From assembly GCA_965205025.1 (NCBI GenBank), contig CBDBFU010000012.1, forward strand, positions 213,015 through 277,014: 64,000 nucleotides of DNA. The letters are read 5' to 3'. This document shows, piece after piece, positions 19,401 to 64,000 of the stretch. Both the position numbers and the translations under genes were made by a program. The notes below the pieces were generated by a model. It had not been told where the DNA came from. It made no database searches and was given only the letters and a program-made list of their open reading frames with translations. Numbering within the stretch: the first letter of the stretch is position 1; the number at the start of each line of letters is the position of its first letter. Origin of the DNA: Candidatus Poribacteria bacterium (GTDB lineage Bacteria; Poribacteria; WGA-4E; WGA-3G).

Positions 19401-20908
19401 CAATCGCAGCCGATGGCGCGACTGAGGGGAACTCCGTCGGGGAACACGTATGGACCTCACATAAAATCAATCCTACTAACACTGATAAATTTGGTGATAA
19501 AGGCAACATCTGGGAGATGTTAAGCACTATTGGAATTAAATGTCTGAACTGTTCTGGTAATGTCATTTATGGTTTGACCTATTTGTATTCACCGCGTGAA
19601 CAAAAGACGAACATGTTTGCAGGAAGTAGTGCTGGTCACAAGGTTTGGCTCAATGGAGAGTTAGTTCGAAACTGGCACGTTAGGAATAGGATATATGACC
19701 TTTATACCGATTATGAAGATGCTTTCCCCGTTACGTTGAAACAAGGTCAGAATGTCTTATTAGTTGCGGTTAATCATGGCTACGGAAATACTGGTAGGTG
19801 GCGTTTTAGTGGTGATTTTGGATTTGCCCCTGGCACAGAATACACCACATATATTCCGGGTGTGGAATATAGTCTATCTGATCCTACAATCTATGTCGGA
19901 GATACCTTCACACTTGACATCCGTGCTGAAGATGTTCACGATTTAGCGGATTGGCAATTTGATATTTCCTTTAATCCCAACGTACTTGAAGTCCTTGAAG
20001 TCAACGAGGGGGATTTCATGAAACAAAATGGAGGAAGCACCTATTTTCAGAAAGGAATAATTGATAACGCTGCTGGCAAAATCGAAGGACTCAGTTCAGC
20101 GATATTGACAGACACAGGAGTCAACGGCACGGGAGTACTACTCTCCGTGACTTTCAAAGCAAAAACTGAAGTTGAAACCCAAGTAGCACTCCATAACTTC
20201 CAACTATTAACAATCTTAGAAGAGACAATCCCTGCCGGTCCCCATAAGTTTATCTTCGCTATAACCCCAAAAAAGAAACCACTCACCGGGGATGTGAATA
20301 GGGACGGACAAGTGAACATTCGGGATATGATCCTTGTTTCACGATCCTTTGGAAAGGATGCATCCGACAACCCCGAGGCTGATGTAAATCAGGACGGCAC
20401 CATTAACATACAAGACCTAATCCTTGTTGCACAGCATTTAGGCGAAACAACTGACAACTCTGCTGCACCGACTATACTTGCCAAAGAGACAGAGCAGCTC
20501 ACACCGGCAATTATACAGAACTGGATAAAACAAGCACAGATTGAAGATGATGGTTCACTTGCTTTCCAGCAAGGAATAGAGTATCTACAACAGTTATTAG
20601 CGTCGTTGCTACCAGAAAAAACGATACTCCTACCGAACTACCCAAATCCATTCAACCCAGAGACGTGGATACCATATCAGTTAGCAACCCCTGCTGATGT
20701 CAGCATCTCTATTTATGCTGCGGACGGACAGGTTGTCCGAACACTACAATTGGGCAATTTGCCAGCAGGACACTATACAAGCCGAAGTCGGGCGGCACAT
20801 TGGGATGGCAAAAATAAAATAGGAGAATCGGTTGCAAGTGGTCTCTATTACTATACCCTTTCAGCAGATGAGTTTTCTGCCACACGAAGGATGTTGATAC
20901 TGAAGTAA
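16496..20908 (+). CDS. Giant secreted multidomain surface protein: cytochrome-c-like CxxCH N-domain, leucine-rich repeats, cohesin-like and dockerin-like modules, T9SS-type C-terminal sorting domain
   Basis: The ORF-track start at 16472 is TTG. ATG at 16496 gives 'MKKHLSRFILISTALLFYITQNVAAQQ' (signal peptide). 'CLICHGENGS' is a CxxCH heme-binding motif. There are about 15 LRRs ('ISDISPLAGLTELQRLNLTGNPISDISPL'). Dockerin-like pairs 'GDVNRDGQVNIRDMILV' and 'ADVNQDGTINIQDLILV'. C-terminal 'LLPNYPNPFNPETWIPYQL...SISIYAADGQVVRTLQLGNLPAGHYTSRSRAAHWDGKNKIGESVASGLYYYTLSADEFSATRRMLILK' is a classic Por/T9SS CTD. Confidence 0.8.
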   Translation: MKKHLSRFILISTALLFYITQNVAAQQNLTQDVYAIIEQSCLICHGENGSYRESLIIEHKALIENGKIIPGDPESSVFYQRLIETDVATRMPLGQPPLTSAAIETIRQWIAAGAPDWNTPVRANTDFITPQAMLETIEAHVQSIPPFDRTFARYFTSTHLYNAGESDEALKAYQRALSKLVNSLSWGREIVKPKAIDPIGTIFYIDLRDYQWEVGTNRWTQIERIYPYTDEYNAPSETSLHEKLTSLQEELNCQVPFIHVDWFVANASLPPLYHDILQLPLTERELEEKLEVSVKENIQNAPGKRVWRAGFNDSGVSNHNRVVERHTFQHGAYWKSYDFAGSVGTQNIFTHPISFEHDGSEIIFNLPNGLQAYYLANQNGNRLNVAPTDIVSNPAVSDPAVRNGLSCIGCHTEGMKQFEDEVRNVVEQNANPPYDKARALSLYVEKATMDALLAQDTERYRQALQKTGDVFGGIEPIQRFHEVFQGPIDSIHAAASLGLQTEILIKNIQQNVGLQNLGLLVLENGTIKRDTWTQQWTDIVHALDFPQESIVTPVEPIPERIPGTIVNIPNPTLRTAIEEALGKPSGTPITVDDMAILTTLHGGGQPPQDLEGIQFATNLEKLSFSHGINDLSPLARLTNLKYLSISGYPLDLSPLAGLTNLEYLNIGGQDFGVTSDTGQLNNVGFDISALAGLTKLHTLRLLGKRVYDISPLVGLTELQWLDLGNLNPGGNRISDISPLAGLTELQRLNLTGNPISDISPLSGLINLERLYLGEMHHEVVGGGNNFSTAQGVLSDISPLVGLTKLQSLSLNNNKISDISSLSSLINLERLDLRFNNISEVSPLANLQKLSGTLNLLGNNISEVSPLANLENLLALQLQFNKISNISPLDGLPEKTRVFWYGNPGFPKGGPKIEGPWLWVLLRNLHVPHDVFILEGRNAVFWGRNVVSWRNYDYYDYLSEASDGSVTEQTIAADGATEGNSVGEHVWTSHKINPTNTDKFGDKGNIWEMLSTIGIKCLNCSGNVIYGLTYLYSPREQKTNMFAGSSAGHKVWLNGELVRNWHVRNRIYDLYTDYEDAFPVTLKQGQNVLLVAVNHGYGNTGRWRFSGDFGFAPGTEYTTYIPGVEYSLSDPTIYVGDTFTLDIRAEDVHDLADWQFDISFNPNVLEVLEVNEGDFMKQNGGSTYFQKGIIDNAAGKIEGLSSAILTDTGVNGTGVLLSVTFKAKTEVETQVALHNFQLLTILEETIPAGPHKFIFAITPKKKPLTGDVNRDGQVNIRDMILVSRSFGKDASDNPEADVNQDGTINIQDLILVAQHLGETTDNSAAPTILAKETEQLTPAIIQNWIKQAQIEDDGSLAFQQGIEYLQQLLASLLPEKTILLPNYPNPFNPETWIPYQLATPADVSISIYAADGQVVRTLQLGNLPAGHYTSRSRAAHWDGKNKIGESVASGLYYYTLSADEFSATRRMLILK
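18330..19150 (+). repeat. Near-identical nucleotide-level repeats encoding the LRR array inside the giant surface-protein gene
   Basis: 'aacaacatatccgaggtttcacctctcgcaaacttg' recurs at about 19000 and 19060. 'atatccgacatctcaccttt' recurs several times. These repeats generate the spurious antisense ORF 18499..19263. Confidence 0.8.
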
Positions 20909-21167
20909 CCTTCCCTAACTCAAGATTTGGAATAATCATTCTTTACCGAATAAAATAAGAATTCAAAAAACTAAATAATCCTGCTTCCCCTCATTTTATC
21001 TTGACTATTTTCACATATTAAACATATAATTGTGGATTAATAGGTTTGAATATTATATCTAACCTACAAAATAAGGATACAATCTCATACCATTCTGAAT
21101 ATTAATTTGTAAACATAGTCGGATAGATTATCACTTATTCCAATTTAAGAAACAAAAGGAACACATA

Positions 21168-21935
21168 ATGAAAAAGATCACTCTAACATTTACTTTACTA
21201 TTTCTCGTTGGATTCGTAGTACAACCGGCACTATCACAAGTTGTTGATGGTCTTGTTGCATATTGGGATTTCAACGAAGGTTCAGGTAACATAGCAAAAG
21301 ATATGTCTGGTAATGGACATGACGGAGAATTGTTGGGAGATGCTCAGTGGACTAACGATGGGTATTTCGGTGGTGGAATCGTATTTGATGGTGCTGGAGA
21401 TGAGGTAAATATTCCTTATCATGCAGACCTCAATCCAGAAGTTTTCACCATTTGTGCTTGGGCAAACGTGGCAGATGGAGGAACAGGACATCGTGCTGTA
21501 ATCTCCTCTCGTGCGGATTTCCCACAACGCGGGTTTATCTTCTACTGCACCCCAGGAAATGTATGGCAGTTTTGGATTGGTGCGGGACCAGACAGTTGGA
21601 AATCTGCTCAAGGACCAGGTGTGACTGTTGACGACTGGGATCATCTCGCAGGGACTTATGCTAATGGGAATCATAGGTTTTATGTAAATGGTGAATTTGC
21701 TGCTGAACAGAAATTTAATATCGCTGTTAACCCTGAAGAGGAATTACTTATCGGGGCAGGCGCAAATGAAACTGCTAACCATAACTATTTCTTCAATGGT
21801 ACAATTGATGAAGTGCAAATCTATAACCGTGTCCTCTCCGATGACGAAATCGCAACCGTTATGACAAGTCCCGTGACTGCTGTAGAAGCCTTAGATAAGC
21901 TTGCACTTACATGGGGACAACTCAAAGCGAAGTAG
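21168..21935 (+). CDS. Secreted LamG / concanavalin-A-like lectin-fold protein, paralog 1 of 3
   Basis: Signal peptide 'MKKITLTFTLLFLVGFVVQPALSQ'. Conserved blocks 'DxSGNGHDGxLLGD', 'GDEVNIPYHxDLNPEVFTIxAWANVADGG', 'HRFYVNGEFAAEQ' and 'NGxIDEVxxYNRVLSDDEI'. Ends in '...LTWGQLKAK'. Confidence 0.8.
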   Translation: MKKITLTFTLLFLVGFVVQPALSQVVDGLVAYWDFNEGSGNIAKDMSGNGHDGELLGDAQWTNDGYFGGGIVFDGAGDEVNIPYHADLNPEVFTICAWANVADGGTGHRAVISSRADFPQRGFIFYCTPGNVWQFWIGAGPDSWKSAQGPGVTVDDWDHLAGTYANGNHRFYVNGEFAAEQKFNIAVNPEEELLIGAGANETANHNYFFNGTIDEVQIYNRVLSDDEIATVMTSPVTAVEALDKLALTWGQLKAK

Positions 21936-52463: not shown

Positions 52464-55400
52464 ATGCGAAAACTTTTTGCTCCACGATGTAGTGTTCTGA
52501 TTTTCTTTTGTTTCTACATTGCCACTGCACATGCCCAAGATAGGGTTCCCACTCATCCCGTTGATGGCACTTTCATCAAAGAGTGGTTGGTGCTGGGTCC
52601 CTTCTTTCCAGAGGATTTGGAGACCGATTTCCTCGCGTCAGTTAACGGCGAGGTTCTTGTTAATCCCAAACCCGGCGATACAGTGACCACCGCTGATGGA
52701 AAGATGTTGACTTGGACGGTATACCGTAGCAAAGGAAACCTTTTCAATCTGCTTCATGCTGTTGGAAACCATCGAGAGGCGGTCTGCTATACTTTCTGCC
52801 TATTGGAAAGCGATCGAGGTGGTGATGGAGAGTTTCTTGTCGGCAGTGATGATGGCGTTGTGGTTTTTCTCAACGGTCAGAGGGTACACACACAGCCAAT
52901 TAGGAGACCTATGGTCGTAGATGAAGATAGGGTCGCTGTTTCATTGCGCCCAGGCAAAAACCGCTGTCTGATGAAGGTCTCAAACGGGTACCAGAATTGG
53001 GCATTAACAGCGCGTGTTTTTCCATCTACTCGTGCAGTGATAGCAGGCGTCATTTCCAATGAAACAGGGAAGACCTTATCCAATGCCATCGTGAACCTGT
53101 GGCAAGGCAGGACCCTGATTGCAAAAACAGAGACCGACACCAGAGGGAATTATCAGTTTTCGGTCTATCCAGCAAGTGGACACTATGATATTCAAGCCAC
53201 CCACGGGGACAGAGGCACTTGGAAGATAGATGTACAACTTTCTACTGGTGTGCGGGTAAACATGAACTTGACTTTACAGAAAGCTATCAGTATCTCTGGG
53301 CACCTGCTAACGCTTGATAATACCCCACATGTTGGTGTCCTTGTGGAAGCATTATCTCTTGGCGAGAGTGGGCCCCGCCAAAGGAGGGTAACGACCTTTT
53401 CAGATAGAGTAGGAAGATATAAATTCATCAACCTGGAACCTGGATCGTATCAATTACGTTGCCACACCTCGGGCGCGTATAGCAGTTTTCAAAAAATAAT
53501 TGTCTCCGTTAGTTCCGAAAAAACTGAGAATATTGGTTTCAGTTTTCCTCCTTTCAAACATGGGACATGGAAAAACTACACTTATCTGGATGGATTGAAA
53601 GATAACTTTATTGAGTCGATTTACCAAGACCGAGACGGTTTTCTTTGGTTTGGGACGCTCAGTAGTGGTGTCTCTCGGTACGATGGCGAAAGGTTCGCCA
53701 ACTTCACCACGGATGATGGTCTTGCATCCGACTCTATCCGATGGATCCATGAAGACAATGCGGGACACCTCTGGTTTAGCACTTGGGGAGTTGGCGTTTC
53801 TCGGTATGATGGCGAAGAGTTTATTAACTTCACCACGGATGAGGGACTCGCATCCAACTTTGTCCGGGCGATTCATCAGGACCGGGAGGGTTACATCTGG
53901 TTCGGGACATACGACGGCGTTTCTCGGTACGATGGTGAAAAGTTCGTCAACTTCACCACAGATGAAGGACTCGTATCCAACTTTGTCCATGCGATCCATG
54001 AAGACAAAGCGGGACACCTCTGGTTTGGCACTTGGGAGGTTGGCGTTTCTCGGTATGATGGAGAAGAGTTTATCAGTTTCACCACGGATGAGGGACTCGT
54101 ATCTAACTCTGTAGCGACGATTCATCAGGACCGGGAGGGTTACATCTGGTTCGGGACAAACGACGGCGTTTCTCGGTACGATGGTGAAAAGTTTGTAAAC
54201 TTCACCACAGATGAGGGCCTCGCATCCAACTTTGTCCAAGCGATTCATCAGGACCGGGAGGGTTACATCTGGTTCGGGACAAGCGGTGGTGCTTCTCGGT
54301 ATGATGGCGAAAAGTTTGTAAACTTCACAATCGGTAAGGGGCCCGCATTTAACGTTGTGACGGCGATCCATCAAGACCGTGAGGGTTACATCTGGTTTGG
54401 AACAGAGGGCAATGGGCTTAGTCAATACGATAGCAGCGGGGTAATCAACTACACGACTTCTGATGGGCTCGTAGACAATCTTGTTTACACAATTTATCAA
54501 GACCATGAAGGGTACATCTGGTTTGGAACCAGGGGCGGAATTAGTCGATATGATGGCGAAAAGTTTATCAATTTTACAACCGATGCTGGACTCGTACACG
54601 ATTTTGTAAATTCGATCTATCAAGACCGTGAGGGGTACATCTGGTTCGGGACACAAGACGGAGTCTCCCAATACGATGGCGAAAAGTTCGTCAACTTCAC
54701 AATTAATGACGGACTCCCAAGCAATTCCGTATGGGCGATCTATCAAGACCATGAGGGTTACATCTGGTTCGGGACAAATGGTAGTGGGGTCTCTCAATAT
54801 GATGGTGAAAATTTTATTAACTTCAATACCGAAGACGGATTGGCACAAAATTATGTGATCTCAATTTATCAAGACCGTGAGGGTTACATCTGGTTCGGGA
54901 CAAACAACGGCGTTTCTCGGTACGATGGCGTAGAGTTCGTCAACTTTACCACGGATGCGGGGCTTGCATCCAACTTTGTCTATGCGATCCATGAAGACAA
55001 AGCGGGACACCTCTGGTTTGGAACCACAGGCGGCGAGGGGGTCTCCCGATATGACGGTGTGAATTTTGTCAACTTCACAAACACTGATGGACTCGCGCAA
55101 AATGATGCAACCTCGATTTACAAAGACCGAGACGGTTTTCTCTGGTTTGGGACGCTCAGCGGTGGTGTCTCTCAATATGACGGGACCGCCTGGACATCTT
55201 TAGATACGCGAGATGGACTCATAAGTGATCAGATTTCAAAAATTTATCAAGACTCAGATGGAAGGTTCTGGTTTGCAACGCTTGATGGGGTGTCCCAATA
55301 CAACCCGAATCGCGTTCCACCGCGTGTGCGGATCGTTTCAGTTCAGAGCCACAAGACATCTGCACAAACTGAATCTCTTAAGACAATTAAGGACATTATG

Positions 55401-56501
55401 ACCGATACTCGTGTAACTATCAAGTATAGTAGTATTGACTTCAAAACCCTAAAAGAAAAACGACAGTATCGAGTTCGCATCAAAGAGATTGACGCTGATT
55501 GGCGTAAACCAACACTATCGGACACCCTTAATATCAGCTTTGATAAACCGGGAACTTATACTTTCGAGGTCGTTGCAATTGACCGTGACCTAAACTACTC
55601 TAACCCGGCAAGCTTGACGTTGACTGTTGTGTTACCGTGGTATCAAAATAAGTGGATTCTCTATCCTTTAGGTGGAGCGATTGTTGTGTTAATGTTACTT
55701 TGTGGTACCTTTGTGTATCGTTACTACCAGCAGCATCAACAAGTTTTAGCCTATCAGCGGGAAGCGGTTTCTGAACTCGCTGATGCACAAGAGATGCAGA
55801 TGGGATTAATACCGCAAACCCCCCCTGAGGTCCCAGGATTTGAGATTGCAGGAGTCTGTATCTCTGCCCGTACCGTCAGTGGGGATTTTTTTGACTATGT
55901 TCCGCTCAGCAACGGAACGCTTGCGGTTGTGCTGGCAGATGTCGCCGGTAAAGGTATGAAGGGGGCAATGAATGCTATTTTATCTTCTGGTGCACTTTAT
56001 TCTGTGGCGCAGTTGGAAATGTCTTCATCTCAAATGTTGTGGGCATTGAACCAGAATCTTTATTCTCGATTTCAACGATATACTAATTGTGCTATGGCGA
56101 TACTGACAATTGACCCAACGGATAAGACGTTTAAATATGCTAACGCCGGAATTCCTTATCCTATGATCAAACGTGGTGAAGGTGATGTTGAAGAAATATC
56201 AATAGATGGACTCCCATTGGGCGCGTTTAAATCATCTGAATATGAAGAAACACCATCCGTTGAACTGAAGTCTGGAAATTTAATAATCCTTTTCAGTGAT
56301 GGCATTACCGAAGCATCTCAAAGAGACAATTCTGACCAACTTTACATGGAAACCGACCGCTTGACATACCTTATCAAAGAACTGGATAAAACAATGAACG
56401 CAGAAGCGGTGATAGATGCGATTATTAACGATGTTCGTGATTTTTCTGGTGACACTCAACAGAACGACGACATGACTATTGTAGTTATCAAAGCATTGTA
56501 A
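52464..56501 (+). CDS. Membrane-anchored sensor: periplasmic CarboxypepD_reg-like domains, about 18 Reg_prop (two-component regulator propeller) repeats, a Y_Y_Y-like Ig domain, one TM, and a cytoplasmic PP2C/SpoIIE-type Ser/Thr phosphatase
   Basis: Signal peptide. About 18 x 'GYIWFGTxxGVSRYDGEKFVNFTTDEGLxSN'. TM 'ILYPLGGAIVVLMLLCGTFVY'. SpoIIE-like 'SGDFFDYVPL...LADVAGKGMKGAM...FSDGITEA...NDDMTIVVIKAL'. No histidine-kinase motifs. Confidence 0.8.
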   Translation: MRKLFAPRCSVLIFFCFYIATAHAQDRVPTHPVDGTFIKEWLVLGPFFPEDLETDFLASVNGEVLVNPKPGDTVTTADGKMLTWTVYRSKGNLFNLLHAVGNHREAVCYTFCLLESDRGGDGEFLVGSDDGVVVFLNGQRVHTQPIRRPMVVDEDRVAVSLRPGKNRCLMKVSNGYQNWALTARVFPSTRAVIAGVISNETGKTLSNAIVNLWQGRTLIAKTETDTRGNYQFSVYPASGHYDIQATHGDRGTWKIDVQLSTGVRVNMNLTLQKAISISGHLLTLDNTPHVGVLVEALSLGESGPRQRRVTTFSDRVGRYKFINLEPGSYQLRCHTSGAYSSFQKIIVSVSSEKTENIGFSFPPFKHGTWKNYTYLDGLKDNFIESIYQDRDGFLWFGTLSSGVSRYDGERFANFTTDDGLASDSIRWIHEDNAGHLWFSTWGVGVSRYDGEEFINFTTDEGLASNFVRAIHQDREGYIWFGTYDGVSRYDGEKFVNFTTDEGLVSNFVHAIHEDKAGHLWFGTWEVGVSRYDGEEFISFTTDEGLVSNSVATIHQDREGYIWFGTNDGVSRYDGEKFVNFTTDEGLASNFVQAIHQDREGYIWFGTSGGASRYDGEKFVNFTIGKGPAFNVVTAIHQDREGYIWFGTEGNGLSQYDSSGVINYTTSDGLVDNLVYTIYQDHEGYIWFGTRGGISRYDGEKFINFTTDAGLVHDFVNSIYQDREGYIWFGTQDGVSQYDGEKFVNFTINDGLPSNSVWAIYQDHEGYIWFGTNGSGVSQYDGENFINFNTEDGLAQNYVISIYQDREGYIWFGTNNGVSRYDGVEFVNFTTDAGLASNFVYAIHEDKAGHLWFGTTGGEGVSRYDGVNFVNFTNTDGLAQNDATSIYKDRDGFLWFGTLSGGVSQYDGTAWTSLDTRDGLISDQISKIYQDSDGRFWFATLDGVSQYNPNRVPPRVRIVSVQSHKTSAQTESLKTIKDIMTDTRVTIKYSSIDFKTLKEKRQYRVRIKEIDADWRKPTLSDTLNISFDKPGTYTFEVVAIDRDLNYSNPASLTLTVVLPWYQNKWILYPLGGAIVVLMLLCGTFVYRYYQQHQQVLAYQREAVSELADAQEMQMGLIPQTPPEVPGFEIAGVCISARTVSGDFFDYVPLSNGTLAVVLADVAGKGMKGAMNAILSSGALYSVAQLEMSSSQMLWALNQNLYSRFQRYTNCAMAILTIDPTDKTFKYANAGIPYPMIKRGEGDVEEISIDGLPLGAFKSSEYEETPSVELKSGNLIILFSDGITEASQRDNSDQLYMETDRLTYLIKELDKTMNAEAVIDAIINDVRDFSGDTQQNDDMTIVVIKAL
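53560..55200 (+). repeat. about 87-bp periodic, near-identical nucleotide repeats encoding the Reg_prop array
   Basis: 'gagggttacatctggttcgggaca' recurs about 8 times. These repeats generate the spurious 464-aa antisense ORF 53454..54848. Confidence 0.85.
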
Positions 56502-56559
56502 AAACCGTTACGATATTTGGTTTGTTCTGTTGTGTCTTCCCTCTATTGTAGTTATCAAT

Positions 56560-56615
56560 TACAGTAAATTTCAAAATTACTTATACATTCGTAGGGGCTG
56601 GGTTCACCTTGTCCT
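56560..56615. repeat. Core of the same repeat, copy D
   Basis: 'cattcgtaggggctgggttcaccttgtcc'. Confidence 0.4.
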
Positions 56616-56992
56616 TCATTGCCAGAAATATCTTTGGCAATGTTGCCATCATTTTTATCTAATAGGTAAACCGCCTCAATGGTATCCTAAGGTAGAAGTC
56701 TGTTGGTTTTAAATGAGGATACAAGTTTTACCCTGGTAAGCCAATAAAAATCAGTCTGATTCTCATTGACAACAGGGTTATTTAGTTTTCAATTTTTTGG
56801 GCGTTTTTTATCACAGTTGTTAATAATCTATAAAATAGCAGATATAGTGTGACTTTTCACACCATATCTGCTATGATTCACCTTAAAACAATCACTTTTT
56901 AAGGTGAATATTGACAAAAAGAAAATCTTGCCACTTGGTAGATATGTTAGTAGAAGTTTTGACCCACGCAACAAGAAAGGAAACGACATCCG

Positions 56993-57420
56993 TTGAAGTC
57001 AATACTCGGTCTCCTCGTTGTTGGACTTATTGTGGGCATAAATAAATATCTGGACTGGGCGGGGGAGTATCACAAGTATTCCAAATATCGCTATATCTAC
57101 AAAGACCTAAACACAAGAGAAGAAAAACATAAAATCCACTATGGGATTACAAGTCTGTCCCCTGAGAAAGCGTCAGCAGAACGCTTACTATCTTTACGGC
57201 GTGGACATTGGTCAATAGAGAACAAGTCGCACTGGATGCGGGACACGCCCCTTGGAGAAGATTCATCACCTGTCTGATCTGGTGCTATTCCACAAGTCAT
57301 GGCAGCATTGCGAAATACAGCATTATCCGTATTCCGGTTCATAGGAGCTACACGGATTGCTGATATGATGAAATATTATGCTTCAAATCCTAAAATCGCA
57401 GTAAACATCATAAAATGAGA
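56993..57420 (+). pseudogene. Degenerate C-terminal fragment of a DDE transposase (IS4/ISAs1-type 'HWSIEN' family) with an in-frame TGA
   Basis: '...ITSLSPEKASAERLLSLRRGHWSIENKSHWMRDTPLGEDSSPV*SGAIPQVMAALRNTALSVFRFIGATRIADMMKYYASNPKIAVNIIK*'. The TGA at 57275-57277 is in frame. The N-terminal about 250 aa of a normal transposase, including the DDE residues, is absent. Other genes in this window use TGA as a stop. Confidence 0.6.
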
Positions 57421-57546
57421 AGTCTTAAAACTAAATAACCATGAAAGGGCAGGCTATTATGTTTTCAAATATTATAAGAAATGTTATGATATCAATCAGT
57501 AATTAGAAGCGATTCTGAAAATACTCATATTATAGGAATAGAATAT

Positions 57547-59184
57547 ATGAATGAACAACTTTCCCATCCTTTTATAAATGATGCAGCATTTAGAGACGCT
57601 GAAAAACGTGTTTTGGGAAATATTCTCACACAATTTGAAGAACTATCCAATGATGAGCTTGAGGAATTAGTTAAAACGAATGTGGAATTTCTTGGAAATG
57701 ATCATATCCGGAAGATTATTGGAAGTACTTATAACAAAGAAATAGAATCCGTTGAATATACTATTGGAAGTGCTAATTTTAATGAGAAGATCCTATCGAA
57801 TGCCTGTGCAAAGATGGAAGGGAAATGGGTAATTTCGGTAGATGAATCAATGGTGGATACAGAGAGTTTTGTCGGTGAAGTCGTATACAGACATAGTTGT
57901 GCATTCGGATATAAAATCCCAAAAACCTTGGATGAAGAAATTGTACCCAAGGAAGAGAGGATACTGGCAGTTTCATCAATTCTACGACTCCAAGATGAGG
58001 AAGATTTTGATAGAAAAATGGCACTCTTAACCTACATGCTCAACCTGTATGTTGCTTATTATACAGCAAAGATTCTTCAGTCATTGAATCAACCTATATA
58101 CGCTGTGATTTTACATGGACCTCTAATTCGGTTAATTGCCCCGTTTTTGAATCTTCTTTTTCGGAAGGAGGATATCAAAAAAGTCGTTACTGCTGATACT
58201 GAACCGCTTATAGATACTACTGATGAGATAAAAACGATTGCTTGTGGCGACTTGCTAGATTTAATAGTGGATGATCCAATTTATCAAGGTATCTCAGAAC
58301 AATTTATTGGATTATTTCCCAGAGAAAGATTGCAAAATGTGAAAGAAAGATTAGATAAAGGTGAAATAATCGGGATTGGATTTTATTTTTCTTTGCTCAG
58401 AAAATTGTCAGACTTAGCTAAAGAGATGAATTTTCACCTGATCAGTTGTGTAGATAATGCCACTTCAACAGAGTATTCAAAATTATATGTCCAGTATCAA
58501 ATTGAGCGTTTCGGGCAGGATTCTATTAACCAGGAAATCCTTCGCAAATTATTTGCAGCTTACGGTGTAAACTTTAGCAAGCAGTTCATAAAGGAAAGGT
58601 TTCGAGACTTAATTGACAAATCAGGTTGGGATGATGAAATGATTCATGCTTTTTCACTGAAATTTGATAATGAAAAGTCAATAGAATCCGAATTTACTCA
58701 ACCTGTGCCGATCCGGAGATATTTTACAGGTGGTAAAAATCAGGATATATTCGGGTTTAGGTTTGGTTCTGCATTTATTTCTGAAGATCCGTCACGGGAA
58801 ACTTTAATCAATCAGATTATAGATACTCTGTACCCGTTTAAAGACTACAGAATGTTAATGAGTTTTGTCCGTACAAGTGCTCTTAAGGCTCCAATTCGGG
58901 TGGAATTCCTTGAACAAGGAGGGGAAGATAATTGGAAAGAGGTATTGGCCTCAATCTATATTTCAAGTCTTCCGTACGGCAGTTATGGGTTACCAATATT
59001 CTTGTATTATGCAGATAAAATGGTGCGGATGCCGAAAGAAATTATATCAGTTGTTACTGAATCATACCTTGTTGAACAAGCAACGAGAGCATTGCATCAA
59101 ATCGGTTTGAGTGATGTAAAGTTAAAGGATGTCTTTTTAGGGGTCACGCAAAAGTTTAGAAGAGATTTCTATGAGCGAGGGTGA
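57547..59184 (+). CDS. Hypothetical 545-aa protein, first gene of the HerA/TGT cassette; tentatively NurA-like (RNase-H-like nuclease)
   Basis: ATG start. The TGA stop overlaps the upstream GTG of the next gene. There is no unambiguous motif. 'KWVISVDESMVD' (about aa 95), 'AVILHGPLIRL' (about aa 185) and 'HLISCVDNATS' (about aa 300) resemble the spacing of the acidic motifs of NurA-type nucleases, but this is weak. Confidence 0.7.
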   Translation: MNEQLSHPFINDAAFRDAEKRVLGNILTQFEELSNDELEELVKTNVEFLGNDHIRKIIGSTYNKEIESVEYTIGSANFNEKILSNACAKMEGKWVISVDESMVDTESFVGEVVYRHSCAFGYKIPKTLDEEIVPKEERILAVSSILRLQDEEDFDRKMALLTYMLNLYVAYYTAKILQSLNQPIYAVILHGPLIRLIAPFLNLLFRKEDIKKVVTADTEPLIDTTDEIKTIACGDLLDLIVDDPIYQGISEQFIGLFPRERLQNVKERLDKGEIIGIGFYFSLLRKLSDLAKEMNFHLISCVDNATSTEYSKLYVQYQIERFGQDSINQEILRKLFAAYGVNFSKQFIKERFRDLIDKSGWDDEMIHAFSLKFDNEKSIESEFTQPVPIRRYFTGGKNQDIFGFRFGSAFISEDPSRETLINQIIDTLYPFKDYRMLMSFVRTSALKAPIRVEFLEQGGEDNWKEVLASIYISSLPYGSYGLPIFLYYADKMVRMPKEIISVVTESYLVEQATRALHQIGLSDVKLKDVFLGVTQKFRRDFYERG

Positions 59185-59198
59185 AAGGAGAAAAGAGA

Positions 59199-61199
59199 AT
59201 GGTTTTGGGAATAATCTTTGGTGAAACATCAACGCAGGAATTTTCCTTTCTATTTGGAGATGTAGATGGCGAACGTCAAAATCAATTGAAATTTTCCTAT
59301 GTTGAAGTTAATATACCTGAAAGTAATGATAAGGTTGTTGCTAAAGTTATTGATGTAAATACAGAGAATCCACTATTGGCAAAAGATACTGCAAAGTTTT
59401 ATTCGGAGCACGAAACAGTTGGAATTTCGGTCCCTGATATAATATCGCACCGATTCACTTTGTATCAAGCCAAATGTGAAGTAATGGGGATCTATAATAG
59501 TATAGAAAACAAAATAGAACCCCTAACGCAGGCGATAAAACCCGGTGAGAAAGTAGAACTATTATCCAATGATGTGCTCAATCAACTCTTCTCTGCAAGC
59601 GAGGAATGGCATTTTCCCCTTGGATATGTTGAGATACCCGGCAGACAAACACATGCTCAAGTATCTTTGAAAGCAGACTCAATCATTACGATGCACGCTT
59701 GTGTTTTTGGCATGACAGGAATGGGTAAAACCACAACATCTGCTGTGCTCTTAGAAGAATTAATGTTCCGTGGTGCAAAGATCATCGTATTTGATCCACA
59801 CGCTGATTATATACATATTAATCGGATACGTCAAAAACTCAATGATGATTTTTCAGAAAGAATTCATAAGCATCAAGGCCTGATAGATAAAATATCAGAA
59901 TACAAGGAATTATTAATAAGTAAATGGTCAAGTAACTGGTCTCAGAGAGAAGTCAAACCTTGGGATGATTTTGATCCATCATTCAAAGATCTTATAAATG
60001 AGAAAGTCAATGAAGAATTAACATCTGAGAATATTTTTTATCGCTTACTTAGTTTATGTTCAATTAAAAATCGTAATCTAATGGTTGACTCTACGCGCAT
60101 CTCTGAACAATTGGATGACATTATTGACGGAATCACGCATCTTGATTTACATAATGGAATCCCTCAGGAACTCATTCACCGGAAGTTGACTATTAAGTTT
60201 AATGCTTTTCCTAGCCTCCAAGTATATACAGATAAAAGTCCTTACTTCACAATGAGATTGATTGAAGCAATAGCGGGTGAAGGTTTTTCAGAGGCACAAG
60301 AAGGTTTTGTAATTGATTGGCTGTCGCACCCACCAAAGCCGAATTTATCTGATGAACAACTTCTTTACTACTTAAAATCACGTATTAAGGATATGCCTAA
60401 ATCAAAAGACGGCAAACCCAATCCATCCCAAGTTCCTCTAAACCGAATTGTTGATAAGGCAAGCCGGACTGTCGTGTCTTTGATAAAACGAAAGTGCACG
60501 TCTCTAAATATCAGTAATTTTGTTGATGCTTTTTGTGCAAAGGGTGAGAGTTTATCTAATGTGGCGACAGCGGTATTTGATCTTTCAGATTTGGAAAATG
60601 ATCACGCAAGGCGAGCTTTGATTTATGCTGTTATGGAATTTGCTTTTGATAGGTATAAATCAAAAAGTTTTATTGTAGAAAAAGATAATCATCATGTAGG
60701 CAAAGATGCACATCCTGTACTTTTTGCTCTTGAGGAAGCAAGGACATTAATCCCCCGGCAAGATGAAAGTAGCACTACCGGAGAAATGCATCCCGCGACC
60801 AGAGCAGCTCGACTTGCAGCAAGACAAATTGCAACTGAAGGACGGAAGATGGGACTTGGTATGCTTGTTATCTCGCAAAAACCCGCTTCAGTAGATCCAA
60901 TAACTGTTTCTCAAGCAAATACGTTAATTTTGCACCGAGTTATTAACCCGGATGATCAGACGTACATCCGTAATGTTGGCGAATCTTTAGCTAGTGAAGA
61001 TTTGGAAACTTTGAAAACTGTAAAAGAAGGTGTTGCTATTGTTACGGGTGATGCCTTAAAAACCAGAATGTCTACATTAGTTAAAGTCAGAAATCGTTAT
61101 AGTGAACCTGGCACTGAAAAACCTCGCCCAATAGAAAGATTTTGGAACGATCCTAATAGAGAGACTTCAAGTGAAGTTCCTGAGTCTACAACGGAATAA
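59199..61199 (+). CDS. HerA/FtsK-type (DUF87) hexameric ATPase
   Basis: The ORF-track GTG start at 59181 overlaps the upstream stop. ATG at 59199 is preceded by SD 'aaaggag'. HAS-barrel-like N-terminus 'MVLGIIFGETSTQEFSFLF'. Walker A 'FGMTGMGKTTTSAV'. 'IIVFDPHADY' (HerA DPHGEY-type). Walker-B region 'VLFALEEARTLIP'. Hallmark 'GRKMGLGMLVISQKPASVDPITVSQANTLILHRVINPDD'. Confidence 0.85.
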   Translation: MVLGIIFGETSTQEFSFLFGDVDGERQNQLKFSYVEVNIPESNDKVVAKVIDVNTENPLLAKDTAKFYSEHETVGISVPDIISHRFTLYQAKCEVMGIYNSIENKIEPLTQAIKPGEKVELLSNDVLNQLFSASEEWHFPLGYVEIPGRQTHAQVSLKADSIITMHACVFGMTGMGKTTTSAVLLEELMFRGAKIIVFDPHADYIHINRIRQKLNDDFSERIHKHQGLIDKISEYKELLISKWSSNWSQREVKPWDDFDPSFKDLINEKVNEELTSENIFYRLLSLCSIKNRNLMVDSTRISEQLDDIIDGITHLDLHNGIPQELIHRKLTIKFNAFPSLQVYTDKSPYFTMRLIEAIAGEGFSEAQEGFVIDWLSHPPKPNLSDEQLLYYLKSRIKDMPKSKDGKPNPSQVPLNRIVDKASRTVVSLIKRKCTSLNISNFVDAFCAKGESLSNVATAVFDLSDLENDHARRALIYAVMEFAFDRYKSKSFIVEKDNHHVGKDAHPVLFALEEARTLIPRQDESSTTGEMHPATRAARLAARQIATEGRKMGLGMLVISQKPASVDPITVSQANTLILHRVINPDDQTYIRNVGESLASEDLETLKTVKEGVAIVTGDALKTRMSTLVKVRNRYSEPGTEKPRPIERFWNDPNRETSSEVPESTTE

Positions 61200-61217: not shown

Positions 61218-62987
61218 ATGTGTTGGATGGGAATAGTAATAATGTCAGAATGTTTACAATCTAATCAGCAGCAACACACGGGAGGTAATTTGTTGATTTT
61301 AGGATGTTCTGACCGAAAACGTGAGTGTTACGGAAGCGCCCCAGCACTTGAAGTTTATGACGGTCCAAACTTCCAAACCCTCCGAAAGTACTTCAGGGAA
61401 AATGGATGGCCTCCCGGTCTTATAATAAAAATAATCTCTGCTAAATATAAAATCATTGACGCTACAACAATTATTGAACCCTATGATGAGCGACTGGATA
61501 AAGAAACAGCGAAAAAAATGAGGAATCGAGTAAGGTATCATTTAAAAAAAATTGAGCACCCAAAATCTGTTTTCGTCAATATGGGTAAGAACTATTTACC
61601 TGCAATTTCTTGCATTAAGTCTTTATATAATCCTGACAGAATTGAGTATGCAAAAGGTGGATATGTACAAAAACGCAAGGAGCTTAAACAGTGGCTTGAA
61701 GGTTTATCAAATAACACTGCTACAATCAATTCTCAAGAACAATCAGATAAGAAGTCTTATCTTTACTTTTTTCCAGATTGGAATGATTATGTTTATGAAT
61801 CTTTCGATCCAGAGAAAATAGATGAAAATCGGAAACCTGAGAAAGGAGTAAAAAAGTACGCTCACGAGATATTTAAGGATGATCCGCCTTATGACGGTTT
61901 ACTCCTCAGTCTTGCCCAACTGCAAACTAAAAATGGACAACTTACCCGACTTGATGAAAAAGGCTCATCGAATTTTCGAACTGAGATGCGGGTTCCTAAT
62001 AGGCTTTTATTATTCGGAGATTGCGGTGCTTTTTCATACATTGAGGATGAAAAGCCTCCCATTTCCTGTGAGGATGCGGCTTTTCGGTATAGTCAATTCG
62101 GTTTTGACCTTGGGACATCTGTCGATCATATACCGATTTCATCGATATCCAAAAGAAAGCAACGATACCGGATGGACTTAACAGCTGAAAATGCCAAAAA
62201 GTTTTTAGAAATTTGTCAGAACAACGAATACGAATTCGATCCAATTGGGAGCATACAAGGTATCATACCTAAACATTATGCTAAATTTGCCAGTGAATAT
62301 ATTAAATGGGGATATGAGCATGTTGCATTAGGTGGATTAGTACGTAGACAAGATTCAGATATTGTAGAAATAGTTGCAGCTGTTCGGGAGGCATTACAGA
62401 AAAGCACATGGAGTAAAAATAAAAATATTTGGGTACATCTTTTTGGCATTCTGAGACCAAATCTTCAACCCATTTTTCGGGAACTTGGTGTTTCCAGTTT
62501 TGACAGCGCATCTTACTTGAGAAAAGCGTGGTCAAGTCCAAATAGGAGCTATTTAACTGCATCTGGAAAGTGGTACGGAAGCATCCGAGTACCTTTTAGT
62601 ACATCAAAACCAATGCGCGAAGTTGCGAAATCTGATGCTAAGTTTTCTAAGAATGGTGCTATGCAGAAATTGGAAAAAGAATGTCTTACGAACCTTAAAC
62701 TTTTTGATGATAGGAAAATATCAGAGGAGAAAGTTCTTGAGAACATTAATGAATATAGTGCACTGCTTCAACGAAAAAAAACATATAACCATTTTTCCGA
62801 AAGACATAAGGAGTTATTAGATGAACGCCCTTGGAAAAAATGTAAATGTAAGATTTGCCAAGATTTGGGTATACATGTTGTAGTTTTCAGGGGAGCAAAC
62901 CGTAACAGACGAAGAGGTTTCCACAATACCTGGGTATTTTATCACAAAATTCTACATAAAGGTCGCAAAATATCATCTAAAGAGTAA
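61218..62987 (+). CDS. tRNA-guanine-transglycosylase (TGT/DpdA)-fold protein with an extra ~190-aa N-terminal domain
   Basis: C-terminal zinc site 'CKCKICQDLGIHVVVFRGANRNRRRGFHNTWVFYH' (C-x-C-x2-C...H, as in the TGT family). 'HLFGILRPNLQPIFRELGVSSFDSASY' resembles TGT 'MGVGKP...GVDMFDCV'. 'LLLFGDCGAFSYIED' fits the substrate-pocket Asp region. The N-terminal 'LLILGCSDRKRECYGSAPALEVYDGPNFQTLRKY...' is not part of the canonical TGT barrel. ATG 61218, with an alternative at 61242. Confidence 0.7.
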   Translation: MCWMGIVIMSECLQSNQQQHTGGNLLILGCSDRKRECYGSAPALEVYDGPNFQTLRKYFRENGWPPGLIIKIISAKYKIIDATTIIEPYDERLDKETAKKMRNRVRYHLKKIEHPKSVFVNMGKNYLPAISCIKSLYNPDRIEYAKGGYVQKRKELKQWLEGLSNNTATINSQEQSDKKSYLYFFPDWNDYVYESFDPEKIDENRKPEKGVKKYAHEIFKDDPPYDGLLLSLAQLQTKNGQLTRLDEKGSSNFRTEMRVPNRLLLFGDCGAFSYIEDEKPPISCEDAAFRYSQFGFDLGTSVDHIPISSISKRKQRYRMDLTAENAKKFLEICQNNEYEFDPIGSIQGIIPKHYAKFASEYIKWGYEHVALGGLVRRQDSDIVEIVAAVREALQKSTWSKNKNIWVHLFGILRPNLQPIFRELGVSSFDSASYLRKAWSSPNRSYLTASGKWYGSIRVPFSTSKPMREVAKSDAKFSKNGAMQKLEKECLTNLKLFDDRKISEEKVLENINEYSALLQRKKTYNHFSERHKELLDERPWKKCKCKICQDLGIHVVVFRGANRNRRRGFHNTWVFYHKILHKGRKISSKE

Positions 62988-63220
62988 CATAGATGATTCT
63001 CTCGGAGAACTATACAATCCTGTAAATCTTGGTAATCCTACAAATCTTGGTTCAGACAGTACAGGGTGTGTAATCTTTTTGTCACTTTTGAAAGCACTAA
63101 TAAATTCTCAATTCCATATACACCTATTTAGAGTTTGCCGATTACAAGGAATTCTTCACTACATTACTGCGCTTAGATATCCATCACTGACTTACCCAAA
63201 ATATAAACATTGAAGAAATC

Positions 63221-64000
63221 AAAATAAAATGAAGAAAACATTAACTTCTAACAACTAATATACATCTATTACATTAAAACAAAATGCATGAATATTATTT
63301 ATCATAATGAAAATAAATTTGAAATTATTGGTACACTATGGCAAAATTAATCTGGATTATACCCTGCACAATAGAAGTGTTTCATTAATTATAGGTTTTA
63401 TTATATGTGCTAAATTAACTATCTGGAGTAGAAGAAAATCCATGTTAGAATTACGAATAAAACATTCAGAATTGTCTCCTTATGAGAATCATCCTAAGAA
63501 CATACATACTCATAATCTAAAAAAGCTGGTACAGAGGATTATTGTACCGAATTACACCATATATTTTTTTAGTTTTTTTAGTTTTAAAATTTTACACCGA
63601 TTCATCAAATCCTTTGTTATCCCAATCCCCAACAGGGTTTACAGCATTTCAAAAAGTAATTTCTTAAAAAGCGATTTGAAAAACTTGAAAAACTTAAAGA
63701 ACTTGAAAAACTTAAAATTTGAGCAGCAACAAACAAAACAGACGATCATACACACAAGAAAACCACTAAACGTTTCGAAGGATATAATTACATTTCTTCT
63801 GTGGGTAAGGATTCCGATCCCGATCTTAACTACTTTACATATCCCTAAGATATTTAACATTCAAACAATTTCAAAACAATGGATTAGAAGAATAAAAAAA
63901 GACACAGCATACACTATTTTTGCAAATTCTTGTAACCTTAAAAAAGTGTCTCTAAACCCAGTGTAGTACTGACGGGAAAAAGGTTTTACCAAAGTTACAC
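63221..64000 (+). repeat. about 760-bp repeated element, copy 2 (runs to the window edge); direct orientation relative to copy 1; contains (aaaaacttg)-type iteron array and a low-complexity ORF (63307..63966)
   Basis: See 41527..42283. The array here reads 'gaaaaacttgaaaaacttaaagaacttgaaaaacttaaaa'. Confidence 0.8.

What the first reader, a model, noticed from the sequence alone, without database searches (positions are those of the whole stretch)
57547..59184. Gene A: a 545-aa orphan upstream of HerA. Is it the NurA-equivalent nuclease?
The position, immediately 5' of HerA and translationally coupled to it, is exactly where nurA sits in archaeal and Deinococcus herA-nurA operons. In known bacterial HerA defence systems this position is where the effector (SIR2, DUF4297) sits.

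The sequence has acidic clusters at roughly the right spacing for an RNase-H-like fold ('ISVDES', 'ILHGPL', 'SCVDNATS'). I cannot confirm NurA motifs by eye, and at 545 aa it is longer than typical NurA (about 340-450 aa). It may therefore be a new effector/sensor domain partnered with HerA.
Basis: inference. Interest (0 to 1): 0.55.

Follow-up and report, generated by a model that had tools for sequence, protein, structure and literature searches.

The report
Divergent NurA nuclease in HerA–DpdA cassette
Gene A is a divergent NurA-type nuclease paired with a HerA DNA motor, and the pair always sits beside enzymes that put 7-deazaguanine into DNA, so it is probably the DNA-cutting arm of an undescribed compact restriction-modification-like system.

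Summary

It is a distinct NurA subfamily. The first-strand Asp (D99) is kept. The canonical helix-α1 Glu is replaced by a hydrophobic residue while an invariant Glu follows D99 ("DES"). The second Asp is His (HGPL), paired with an acidic residue where Sulfolobus NurA has Lys.

The larger finding is context. In six phyla, NurA-like and HerA are flanked by a DpdC-like DUF6884 domain and a DpdA-type DNA-guanine transglycosylase, fused here as the third gene. There is no DpdB and no DpdD-K.

Best reading (about 0.5): DpdA/DUF6884 mark self DNA with 7-deazaguanine, and HerA-NurA degrades unmarked DNA. Main rival: HerA-NurA replaces DpdB as the modification motor. No paper in the searchable library links NurA to DpdA.

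The parts
57547..59184 (+). Gene A: divergent NurA-family (RNase-H-like fold) nuclease subunit, 545 aa
57841..57849 (+). D99-E100-S101 ('ISVDES'): first-strand catalytic Asp motif. It aligns with 'IDGG' in the Pfam-passing NurA relatives (A3).
   Evidence: Invariant in 23/23 and 30/30 aligned sequences. Aligns to 'IDGG' in Pfam-passing NurA relatives. The equivalent Asp is D58 in Sulfolobus NurA, where D58A abolishes nuclease activity (PMC3326311), and D49 in T. kodakarensis (PMC12977600). E100 is Gly or Ala in the canonical-type relatives.
58114..58125 (+). H190-G-P-L193 ('ILHGPL'): motif at the end of strand beta4, at the position of the second catalytic Asp of NurA (D133 in Sulfolobus)
   Evidence: G-P-L is invariant. 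Position 190 is His in most clades and Asp ('DGPL') in the Aquificota clade. Pfam-passing NurA relatives also carry HGPL.
58453..58455 (+). D303 (in 'SCVDNATSTEY'): acidic residue coupled to H190, assigned here to the position of the conserved Lys K202 of Sulfolobus NurA
   Evidence: E or D wherever position 190 is His, and Lys wherever 190 is Asp, with no exception among 25 sequences. K202 and D133 are described in PMC3326311. The assignment to K202 rests on strand position and on the coupling with residue 190, not on a residue-level alignment to Sulfolobus NurA.
59014..59019 (+). D490-K491 in 'LPIFLYYADK': C-terminal active-site / HerA-contact motif at the end of the Pfam NurA domain
   Evidence: D490 is invariant. 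It aligns with 'NLDVVDK' of NurA relatives. The Pfam NurA match ends at residue 494, profile position 253 of 254. The model has pLDDT <50 over 477-506, so the geometry was not assessed.
59185..59191 (+). Shine-Dalgarno-like AAAGGAG in front of the probable HerA ATG start
   Evidence: Sequence read.
59199..61199 (+). HerA-type hexameric ATPase/translocase. Probable ATG start at 59199; alternative GTG at 59181 overlaps the gene A stop. Walker A is at 59709-59732 (K177) and Walker B at 60720-60740.
   Evidence: Pfam DUF87 1.1e-19, PADLOC HerA 2.1e-37, NCBIfam HerA models all below their cut-offs. Closest solved chain is the T. kodakarensis HerA of the HerA-NurA complex, 9x1l_A, E 1.4e-22. Motifs located.
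61218..62987 (+). Third gene: fusion of a DpdC-like DUF6884 domain (nt 61296-61610, CxxxK at 61305-61319) and a DpdA DNA-guanine transglycosylase (nt 61764-62951, CxCxxC zinc motif at 62841-62858)
   Evidence: Pfam DUF6884 40.5 bits (cut-off 30) and TGT 34.2 bits. NCBIfam DpdA equivalog 338.6 bits (cut-off 200). PADLOC DpdA 1.9e-95. PDB 7ui4 DNA-guanine transglycosylase, E 8.4e-60 over residues 180-579. DUF6884 is the Pfam domain of DpdC (bioRxiv 10.1101/2025.02.24.639861) and is related to YaaA/PF03883 (PMC11701544).

Best explanation
Gene A encodes a divergent NurA-family nuclease subunit with an RNase-H-like fold. It works with the adjacent HerA ATPase. By analogy with solved archaeal HerA-NurA complexes, a HerA hexamer uses ATP to thread DNA into a NurA dimer, which cuts it.

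Here the pair is not a stand-alone repair machine. It is one half of a conserved cassette whose other half is a DpdA DNA-guanine transglycosylase plus a DpdC-like DUF6884 domain. Those enzymes replace guanine in DNA with preQ0 and probably convert it further.

The most likely function is a compact restriction-modification-like system. DpdA/DUF6884 mark the cell's own DNA with a 7-deazaguanine base, and HerA-NurA translocates on and degrades DNA that lacks the mark.

Shown: the NurA fold and family relationship, HerA adjacency, DpdA identity, and conservation of the cassette.

Inferred: nuclease activity despite a remodelled active site (D99, E100, H190, D303, D490), complex formation with HerA, the modification chemistry, and discrimination between marked and unmarked DNA.

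Sub-confidences: NurA homologue about 0.9; functionally tied to DpdA/DUF6884 about 0.8; restriction arm about 0.5.
For: NurA identity:
- Pfam NurA hits in 30/30 family members.
- Foldseek top 10 are all NurA.
- hhalign probability 99.87 to proteins that pass the Pfam NurA cut-off.

Conserved candidate catalytic residues: D99, E100, E137, G191-P192-L193 and D490 are invariant, and position 190 is always His or Asp, across sequences down to 23% identity. This argues that an active site is retained.

HerA partner: the closest solved chain is the HerA of an archaeal HerA-NurA complex.

Cassette conservation:
- HerA follows the NurA-like gene in every locus that extends far enough (27 of 28 genome loci).
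- A DpdA or TGT-like gene follows wherever the contig extends far enough, except L026, where the ~150 nt left after HerA cannot show one. A DUF6884 gene or domain was detected in most loci, though it was not seen or not checked in L017, L021, L024 and L027.
- This holds in Poribacteria, Thermochlorobacter, Aquificota, Blastocatellia, cyanobacteria and Chloroflexota.

DpdA identity: NCBIfam equivalog 338.6 bits against a cut-off of 200, and 7ui4 at E 8.4e-60.

No other restriction candidate sits in the window's three-gene version. Related loci add further DNA-degrading modules: UvrD-type helicase with PD-(D/E)XK nuclease, Cas4, or an MmeI-like type IIG enzyme.

The HerA-NurA mechanism is taken from PMC3326311 and PMC12977600.
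Against: - No experiment exists; all loci come from metagenome-assembled genomes.
- The canonical helix-α1 catalytic Glu (Sulfolobus E116) aligns to a hydrophobic residue (V169) in every member. Nuclease activity is therefore not guaranteed, and the proposed substitute E100 is only an inference from alignment patterns.
- The tools do not expose model coordinates, and the C-terminal active-site segment 477-506 has pLDDT <50. Active-site geometry was not inspected.
- The modification genes flank the HerA-NurA pair in a single operon rather than forming a separate module. That arrangement fits a single modification machine equally well.
- Canonical DpdA needs the ATPase DpdB, which is absent here, so HerA could be its replacement.
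- The cassette has native codon composition and a fixed chromosomal position in one Poribacteria lineage. It has no relatives in the phage, plasmid or viral collections. This is less island-like than many defence systems.
- No preQ0 synthesis genes were seen in the part of the window that was scanned.
Confidence: 0.5

Rival explanations
1. HerA-NurA is the modification motor, not the restriction arm. HerA ATPase, with NurA as a DNA-gating or nicking ring, takes the place of the missing DpdB. It opens or remodels DNA so that DpdA can exchange guanine for preQ0 and DUF6884 can process it. On this reading the cassette is a modification-only system, or one that relies on restriction genes located elsewhere.
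For: - DpdB, the ATPase needed by canonical DpdA, is absent from the locus. The requirement for DpdB is stated in the abstract of PMC10164549 and in PMC12839542.
- The four functions are interleaved in one operon, in the order DUF6884-NurA-HerA-TGT.
- The canonical NurA Glu is lost.
- Several related loci carry separate nuclease modules that could do the restricting.
Against: - Candidate metal-binding residues D99, E100 and D490 are invariant, and position 190 is always His or Asp. A purely structural ring would be expected to relax these.
- Phage DpdA enzymes are reported to work without DpdB (my own recollection of the phage DpdA literature, not checked here).
- Every characterised HerA-NurA complex is a processive DNA-degrading machine (PMC3326311, PMC12977600).
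Confidence: 0.2
2. The NurA-like protein has lost catalysis and serves as a sensor or scaffold. It forms a ring that reads modified versus unmodified DNA, or docks DpdA on HerA. Any cleavage is done by other nucleases.
For: - The helix-α1 Glu is replaced by a hydrophobic residue in all members, and the second Asp is replaced by His in most.
- About 290 residues of family-specific helical extensions and insertions have no Pfam match.
- UvrD/PD-(D/E)XK or Cas4 genes are present in many related loci.
Against: - D99, E100, E137 and D490 are strictly invariant. The coupled swap between H190/E303 and D190/K303 looks like maintenance of an active site.
- His in place of the last Asp is tolerated in the related PIWI catalytic tetrads (established knowledge of Argonaute DEDH/DEDD sites).
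- The window's version has no other nuclease gene.
Confidence: 0.12
3. It is an ordinary housekeeping HerA-NurA pair for double-strand-break end resection, as in archaea and Deinococcus, and the adjacency to DpdA is incidental.
For: - The closest solved HerA and NurA structures come from DNA-repair complexes.
- The cassette has native codon composition and a stable position next to the tricorn protease gene in Poribacteria.
Against: - Linkage to a TGT/DpdA gene, and in most loci to DUF6884, persists across six phyla at 23-40% protein identity and through gene fusion and fission.
- No Mre11 or Rad50 genes appear in the neighbourhoods that were examined.
- The family is very rare: 61 cluster representatives among 1.84 billion. 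That is not what a core repair function would show.
- The NCBIfam repair-HerA equivalog scores 122 bits against a cut-off of 970.
Confidence: 0.06
4. Gene A is a non-NurA effector of a known bacterial HerA defence system (SIR2-HerA or DUF4297-HerA type), or a wholly new effector domain.
For: The window protein itself falls just under the Pfam NurA cut-off.
Against: - No PADLOC hit at E<=1.
- No SIR2 or DUF4297 Pfam hit at E<=1.
- The fold is NurA, with a clear gap to the next fold class.
Confidence: 0.02

Closest known systems
Archaeal/Deinococcus NurA of the HerA-NurA end-resection complex (Pfam PF09376; PDB 2ygk, 3tal, 9x1l, 7f6d, 1zup)
   Same: - First-strand catalytic Asp in the same motif position.
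- G-x-L motif after strand beta4.
- C-terminal Y...D motif at the end of the domain.
- Gene immediately next to herA.
- The partner HerA is closest to the HerA of an archaeal HerA-NurA complex.
   Different: - Sequence identity is only 10-16%, and no sequence-level hit to any solved NurA was found, even with family profiles.
- It is 545 aa against 319-450 aa, with extra N-terminal helices and two helical insertions.
- 'DES' replaces 'DG(S/G)'.
- The helix-α1 Glu (Sulfolobus E116) is replaced by a hydrophobic residue.
- The second Asp is His, and the residue assigned here to the conserved-Lys position (K202) is acidic.
- There is no Mre11-Rad50 neighbourhood. It is always linked to DpdA/TGT and usually to DUF6884.
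Dpd 7-deazaguanine restriction-modification system (dpdA-K; Salmonella Montevideo type)
   Same: - A bona fide DpdA: NCBIfam equivalog, and 7ui4 at E 8.4e-60.
- A domain of the DpdC type (DUF6884, YaaA-like).
- The same expected chemistry: preQ0 inserted into DNA, possibly converted to dADG.
   Different: - No DpdB (ParB/DndB-like ATPase).
- None of the DpdD-K helicase/PLD restriction genes.
- HerA-NurA occupies their place.
- DUF6884 is fused to DpdA here, or is encoded upstream of NurA in other phyla.
- No PADLOC or NCBIfam DpdC model matched at E<=1.
TdpABC phosphorothioate-based system (TdpAB complex, PDB 8wet)
   Same: - The system pairs a DNA-modification enzyme with the TdpAB complex as its restriction side (PMC12914056). 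My recollection is that TdpA is a HerA-like hexameric ATPase.
- This is the same design logic as proposed here.
   Different: - The mark is a backbone phosphorothioate made by TdpC, not a 7-deazaguanine base made by DpdA.
- There is no detectable sequence similarity.
- Details of how TdpAB senses the mark come from my memory of An et al. 2025, which the library does not hold.
HerA/FtsK + GNAT + TGT 'BREX-related capture' (BRC) systems (PMC12839542)
   Same: A HerA-type translocase is combined with a TGT-family DNA-modifying enzyme in a predicted defence locus, without DpdB or DpdC.
   Different: - BRC has PglZ, BrxC-like DUF6079, a STAND NTPase, DUF4007 and GNAT, and no NurA. None of these is present here.
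- The cassette here has NurA and DUF6884 instead.
SIR2-HerA and DUF4297-HerA anti-phage systems
   Same: A two-gene core in which an effector gene sits next to herA.
   Different: The effector here is a NurA-fold protein, not SIR2 or DUF4297. PADLOC gives no hit for gene A.

Membership tests
NurA (PF09376) | NurA-type RNase-H-like fold | tested here: met
   [not shown]
NurA (PF09376) | Sequence match to the Pfam NurA model above the gathering score (21 bits) | tested here: inconclusive
   The window protein scores 19.5 bits, E 7e-4, and only over its C-terminal residues 429-494. All 30 aligned homologues match at E<=0.01, best 2.8e-7. The family profile reaches proteins that pass the cut-off at 26-48 bits, and hhalign to them gives probability 99.87, E 6.6e-32.
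NurA (PF09376) | Catalytic Asp on the first strand (Sulfolobus D58, T. kodakarensis D49) | tested here: met
   D99 is invariant and aligns with the D of 'IDGG' in Pfam-passing NurA relatives.
NurA (PF09376) | Catalytic Glu on helix α1 (Sulfolobus E116), about 17-19 residues before the second Asp | tested here: not met
   The invariant Glu of the Pfam-passing relatives aligns to V169 of the window protein. That position is hydrophobic in all 17 family representatives. E100, E137 and N166 are invariant and may compensate, but this is inference.
NurA (PF09376) | Second catalytic Asp after strand beta4 (Sulfolobus D133) with a nearby conserved Lys (K202) | tested here: inconclusive
   The window protein has His190 with an acidic D303. 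The Aquificota members of the same family have the canonical Asp with Lys. Pfam-passing NurA relatives also use His with Glu. The position is therefore conserved but the chemistry is altered.
NurA (PF09376) | Gene adjacent to herA; toroidal dimer that docks on a HerA hexamer | tested here: met
   Adjacency holds in the window and in every related locus that extends far enough. Dimerisation and docking cannot be tested with these tools.
Dpd 7-deazaguanine system | DpdA DNA-guanine transglycosylase | tested here: met
   NCBIfam NF041059 at 338.6 bits against a cut-off of 200. PADLOC DpdA 1.9e-95. PDB 7ui4 at E 8.4e-60.
Dpd 7-deazaguanine system | DpdB (ParB/DndB-like ATPase) next to DpdA | tested here: not met
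   None of the four ORFs of the locus matched a ParB, DndB or DpdB model in Pfam, PADLOC or NCBIfam. None appeared in the related loci that were inspected.
Dpd 7-deazaguanine system | DpdC (DUF6884 / YaaA-like) that converts dPreQ0 to dADG | tested here: inconclusive
   The DUF6884 domain is present above the Pfam cut-off (40.5 against 30 bits) and carries a CxxxK motif. No PADLOC or NCBIfam DpdC model matched at E<=1. Activity cannot be tested.
Dpd 7-deazaguanine system | DpdD-K restriction genes (SNF2/DEAD helicases, PLD nuclease and others) | tested here: not met
   Absent from the locus. The window ends 1 kb after dpdA, so genes further downstream cannot be excluded.
SIR2-HerA / DUF4297-HerA defence systems | SIR2 or DUF4297 effector next to HerA | tested here: not met
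   Gene A has no PADLOC hit at E<=1 and no SIR2 or DUF4297 Pfam hit. Its fold is NurA.
TdpABC phosphorothioate system | TdpC-type phosphorothioation enzyme together with a TdpA/TdpB pair | not tested
   [not shown]

The most novel reading that the evidence does not exclude
The DUF6884 / NurA-like / HerA / DpdA cassette is a previously undescribed, self-contained 7-deazaguanine restriction-modification machine. In it a HerA-NurA translocase-nuclease replaces both the DpdB loader and the eight-gene DpdD-K restriction module. It uses a NurA active site whose catalytic Glu has moved from helix α1 to the residue after the first Asp.
Probability: 0.4. Interest if true: 0.7.

Novelty: new variant of a known kind. 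Interest (0 to 1): 0.55.

Why it matters
If the reading is right, three things follow.

1. 7-deazaguanine DNA marking has been coupled at least twice to quite different restriction machineries. Here the partner is the same HerA-NurA engine that archaea use for DNA-end resection. This would parallel the phosphorothioate-based TdpABC system and point to a general "modification enzyme plus HerA-NurA" design.

2. It would give a three- or four-gene, experimentally tractable model for two open questions. One is how a translocase-nuclease senses a base modification. The other is how DpdA works without DpdB.

3. The NurA subfamily, with its relocated acidic residue and the His/acid versus Asp/Lys swap, is a natural experiment on the plasticity of RNase-H-like active sites.

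The cassette occurs in sponge-symbiont Poribacteria and in thermophiles. Their DNA modifications could affect metagenome sequencing signals.

Tried and rejected
- Sequence searches of the PDB with gene A alone and with three family profiles (A1, A2, A3) found no NurA. The link to solved NurA structures therefore rests on fold comparison and on Pfam. For the same reason a residue-by-residue alignment to Sulfolobus or Pyrococcus NurA could not be produced.
- PADLOC and NCBIfam gave nothing useful for gene A.
- An exact-sequence look-up of the window protein and of P0001 found no contig on record.
- No relatives were found in viral contigs, phage genomes or plasmids. A mobile-element origin was not supported.
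- The promoter and terminator scan was no better than shuffled sequence.
- The lower GC of the operon looked like an island signal, but GC3 (0.28-0.31) equals that of neighbouring genes. The idea of recent transfer was dropped.
- A search for preQ0 synthesis genes among ten nearby window ORFs found only housekeeping genes.
- Literature searches linking NurA with DpdA, deazaguanine or TGT, and a search for PDC-M57, found nothing relevant.
- Iyer et al. 2013 (NAR 41:7635) and An et al. 2025 (Nat Chem Biol) are not held. A prior mention there cannot be ruled out.
- Model coordinates are not exposed, so distances between candidate catalytic residues could not be measured.
Full report
**1. Observation**

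The window has an ATG-initiated ORF of 545 codons at 57547-59184 on the + strand. Two ORFs follow it.
- A 672-aa ORF is a HerA ATPase: Pfam DUF87 1.1e-19, and 15 PADLOC HerA-type models with a best E-value of 2.1e-37.
- A 589-aa ORF at 61218-62987.

The stated 4-nt overlap with HerA assumes a GTG start at 59181. An ATG at 59199, preceded by AAAGGAG, gives a 14-nt spacer, which is the spacing called in homologous loci. Either way the two genes are tightly linked.

**2. What gene A is**

*Homologues.* A search of 5.8 billion proteins returned 95 homologues at 35-100% identity. Many carry a precomputed PF09376 (NurA) hit, and NCBI names one of them NurA.

*Pfam.* The window protein itself scores 19.5 bits against Pfam NurA, where the cut-off is 21, and only over residues 429-494. 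All 30 members of alignment A1 match NurA at E<=0.01, with a best value of 2.8e-7.

*Family size and link to NurA.* An exhaustive profile search of 1.84 billion cluster representatives found only 61 relatives, so the family is rare. The weakest full-length hits pass the Pfam NurA threshold at 26-48 bits. They align to the family with hhalign probability 99.87, E 6.6e-32, over 390 columns.

*Fold.* An AlphaFold2 model (pLDDT 74.7, pTM 0.77) was compared with solved structures.
- Foldseek: the ten best hits are all NurA (E 7e-6 to 3e-4), and the next hit is at E 0.14.

Sequence-only searches of the PDB found no NurA, which shows how divergent this protein is.

**3. A remodelled active site**

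Published Sulfolobus work gives D58, E116 and D133 as catalytic residues, with conserved K202 and Y298 (PMC3326311). I compared three sets of sequences: the family across six phyla (A2), the Pfam-passing relatives (A3), and a joint alignment.

- D99 is invariant and corresponds to the first Asp.
- The residue after it is an invariant Glu (E100), where canonical-type NurA has Gly.
- The helix-α1 Glu of the canonical-type relatives aligns to a hydrophobic residue (V169) in every family member. Y163 and N166 are invariant on that helix.
The Asp/Lys state matches Sulfolobus D133/K202. The split coincides with one clade, so it counts as one evolutionary event, not as statistics.
- D490 in "LPIFLYYADK" is invariant and lies at the end of the Pfam domain. 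The model is unreliable over 477-506.

My inference is that an active site is maintained but rebuilt from D99, E100, H190, D303 and D490.

Because one defining catalytic feature was tested and not met, I file the protein as a distinct subfamily of the NurA superfamily, not as a canonical NurA.

**4. Context**

*The third gene.* It is a fusion of two domains.
- A DUF6884 domain: 40.5 bits against a cut-off of 30, with a CxxxK motif.
- A DpdA DNA-guanine transglycosylase: NCBIfam equivalog 338.6 bits against a cut-off of 200, PADLOC 1.9e-95, and PDB 7ui4 at E 8.4e-60.

DUF6884 is the Pfam domain found in DpdC (bioRxiv 10.1101/2025.02.24.639861). It is related to YaaA/PF03883 (PMC11701544), which is the family given for DpdC in PMC12839542.

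*Conservation.* In 28 genome loci from Poribacteria, Thermochlorobacter, Hydrogenothermaceae/Thermovibrio/Desulfurobacteriaceae, Blastocatellia, cyanobacteria and Chloroflexota:
- HerA follows the NurA-like gene in every locus that extends far enough.
- A DpdA or a more divergent TGT-like gene follows wherever the contig extends far enough, except L026, where only about 150 nt remain after HerA.
- DUF6884 was detected in most loci. It is either fused to DpdA (most Poribacteria loci) or a small gene overlapping the start of the NurA-like gene (other phyla). It was not seen or not checked in L017, L021, L024 and L027.

*Accessory genes.* Many related loci carry additional modules.
- A UvrD-type helicase is found in L009, L011, L012, L013, L015, L018, L023, L024 and L027. 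A PD-(D/E)XK nuclease domain accompanies it in L011 and L023, the two loci where this was checked.
- L020 carries Cas4 and an SF1 helicase.
- L001 and L002 carry an MmeI-like type IIG enzyme.

None of these is in the window. No DpdB and no DpdD-K genes were seen in any locus.

*Other context.*
- The HerA is closest to the HerA of the T. kodakarensis HerA-NurA complex.
- The cassette has no relatives in the viral, phage or plasmid collections.
- In eight Poribacteria genomes, as in the window, the cassette lies downstream of the tricorn protease gene.
- Its GC3 matches that of its neighbours.

**5. Mechanism**

*Established for archaeal complexes.* A HerA hexamer hydrolyses ATP to move DNA into the NurA dimer, which cleaves it, and a first-strand Asp mutant is dead (PMC3326311, PMC12977600).

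*Established for Dpd.* DpdA inserts preQ0 into DNA with help from the ATPase DpdB, and DpdC converts it to dADG (PMC10164549 abstract; PMC12839542).

*Best-supported reading here (about 0.5).* This is a restriction-modification-like system. DpdA/DUF6884 mark self DNA, and HerA-NurA degrades unmarked DNA. The tdpABC phosphorothioate system is the precedent: its TdpB is a structural neighbour of gene A, and TdpAB forms the restriction side (PMC12914056; the mechanistic details are from memory).

*Rivals.*
- HerA-NurA replaces DpdB as the motor for modification (0.2).
- The NurA-like protein is a non-catalytic sensor or scaffold (0.12).
- It is an ordinary repair pair (0.06).
- It is a non-NurA effector (0.02).

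**6. Novelty**

Full-text searches found no paper that links NurA with DpdA, deazaguanine or TGT. The nearest published case is the HerA/FtsK + GNAT + TGT "BRC" system, which has BREX-like parts and no NurA (PMC12839542). Two potentially relevant papers are not held.

Gene A alone is a divergent member of a known superfamily. The cassette is a new variant of known kinds: Dpd-type modification combined with HerA-NurA. Interest 0.55.

Noticed in passing
L023:7349-10108; L011:15957-19051; L020:14899-15411 and 17579-21367; L027:7072-9642; also L009, L012, L013, L015, L018, L024: Many related cassettes carry an extra UvrD-type SF1 helicase. In L023 it is fused to a PD-(D/E)XK nuclease; in L011 the two are separate genes; L020 has a stand-alone Cas4 instead. 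The nuclease part was checked only in L011, L020 and L023. The genes lie between HerA and DpdA, after DpdA, or upstream of NurA. The window's version lacks them, but the window ends 1 kb after dpdA.
   Followed up: partly
L001/L002:15091-18279: In the Thermochlorobacter-like loci a 1062-aa MmeI-like type IIG methyltransferase/endonuclease (N6_Mtase, Eco57I) directly follows the TGT gene of the cassette.
   Followed up: no
window 58114-58116 and 58453-58455 (residues 190 and 303 of gene A): There is a coupled swap. His190 with Glu/Asp303 occurs in most clades, and Asp190 with Lys303 (the Sulfolobus NurA D133/K202 state) occurs in the Aquificota clade. Residues 487 and 491 also differ between the two groups. 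The swap coincides with a single clade split.
   Followed up: partly
window 56993-57277 (and 56502-57546): A 94-codon ORF ends in '...RRGHWSIENKSHWMRDTPLGEDSS'. It looks like the C-terminal remnant of a transposase and has a weak tblastn match in L018. It lies in the 1-kb non-coding gap just upstream of gene A.
   Followed up: partly
window 52464-56501: A 1345-aa Reg_prop/Y_Y_Y/SpoIIE phosphatase gene has GC3 0.46, against about 0.29 for its neighbours. It sits between the tricorn protease gene and the cassette. The eight other Poribacteria loci that share the tricorn neighbour have no match to it, so it is probably an insertion.
   Followed up: partly
window 62988-64000: The 1 kb downstream of dpdA is 29.7% GC. 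It includes a short tandem-like run (GAAAAACTTGAAAAACTTAAAGAACTTGAAAAACTTAAAA, about 63675-63720). The 219-codon ORF at 63307-63966 has only a sub-threshold Pfam hit and looks spurious.
   Followed up: no
L011:14586-15941 (- strand); L012:11626-13422: A DDE_5 transposase is inserted inside the cassette of one Poribacteria genome, between DUF6884 and the UvrD gene. In another genome the HerA match starts only at residue 186, after a 1.8-kb gap, which suggests a disrupted or interrupted herA.
   Followed up: no
L028-L032 (for example L029:13400-14746): In cyanobacterial and Chloroflexota cassettes the gene after HerA is a 448-aa protein with no Pfam hit. It has only weak similarity (E about 1e-5 to 2e-7) to the TIM-barrel core of DpdA. 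L027 instead has a TGT fused to DUF5591. The base-exchange enzyme of the cassette is therefore diverse and may install different bases.
   Followed up: partly
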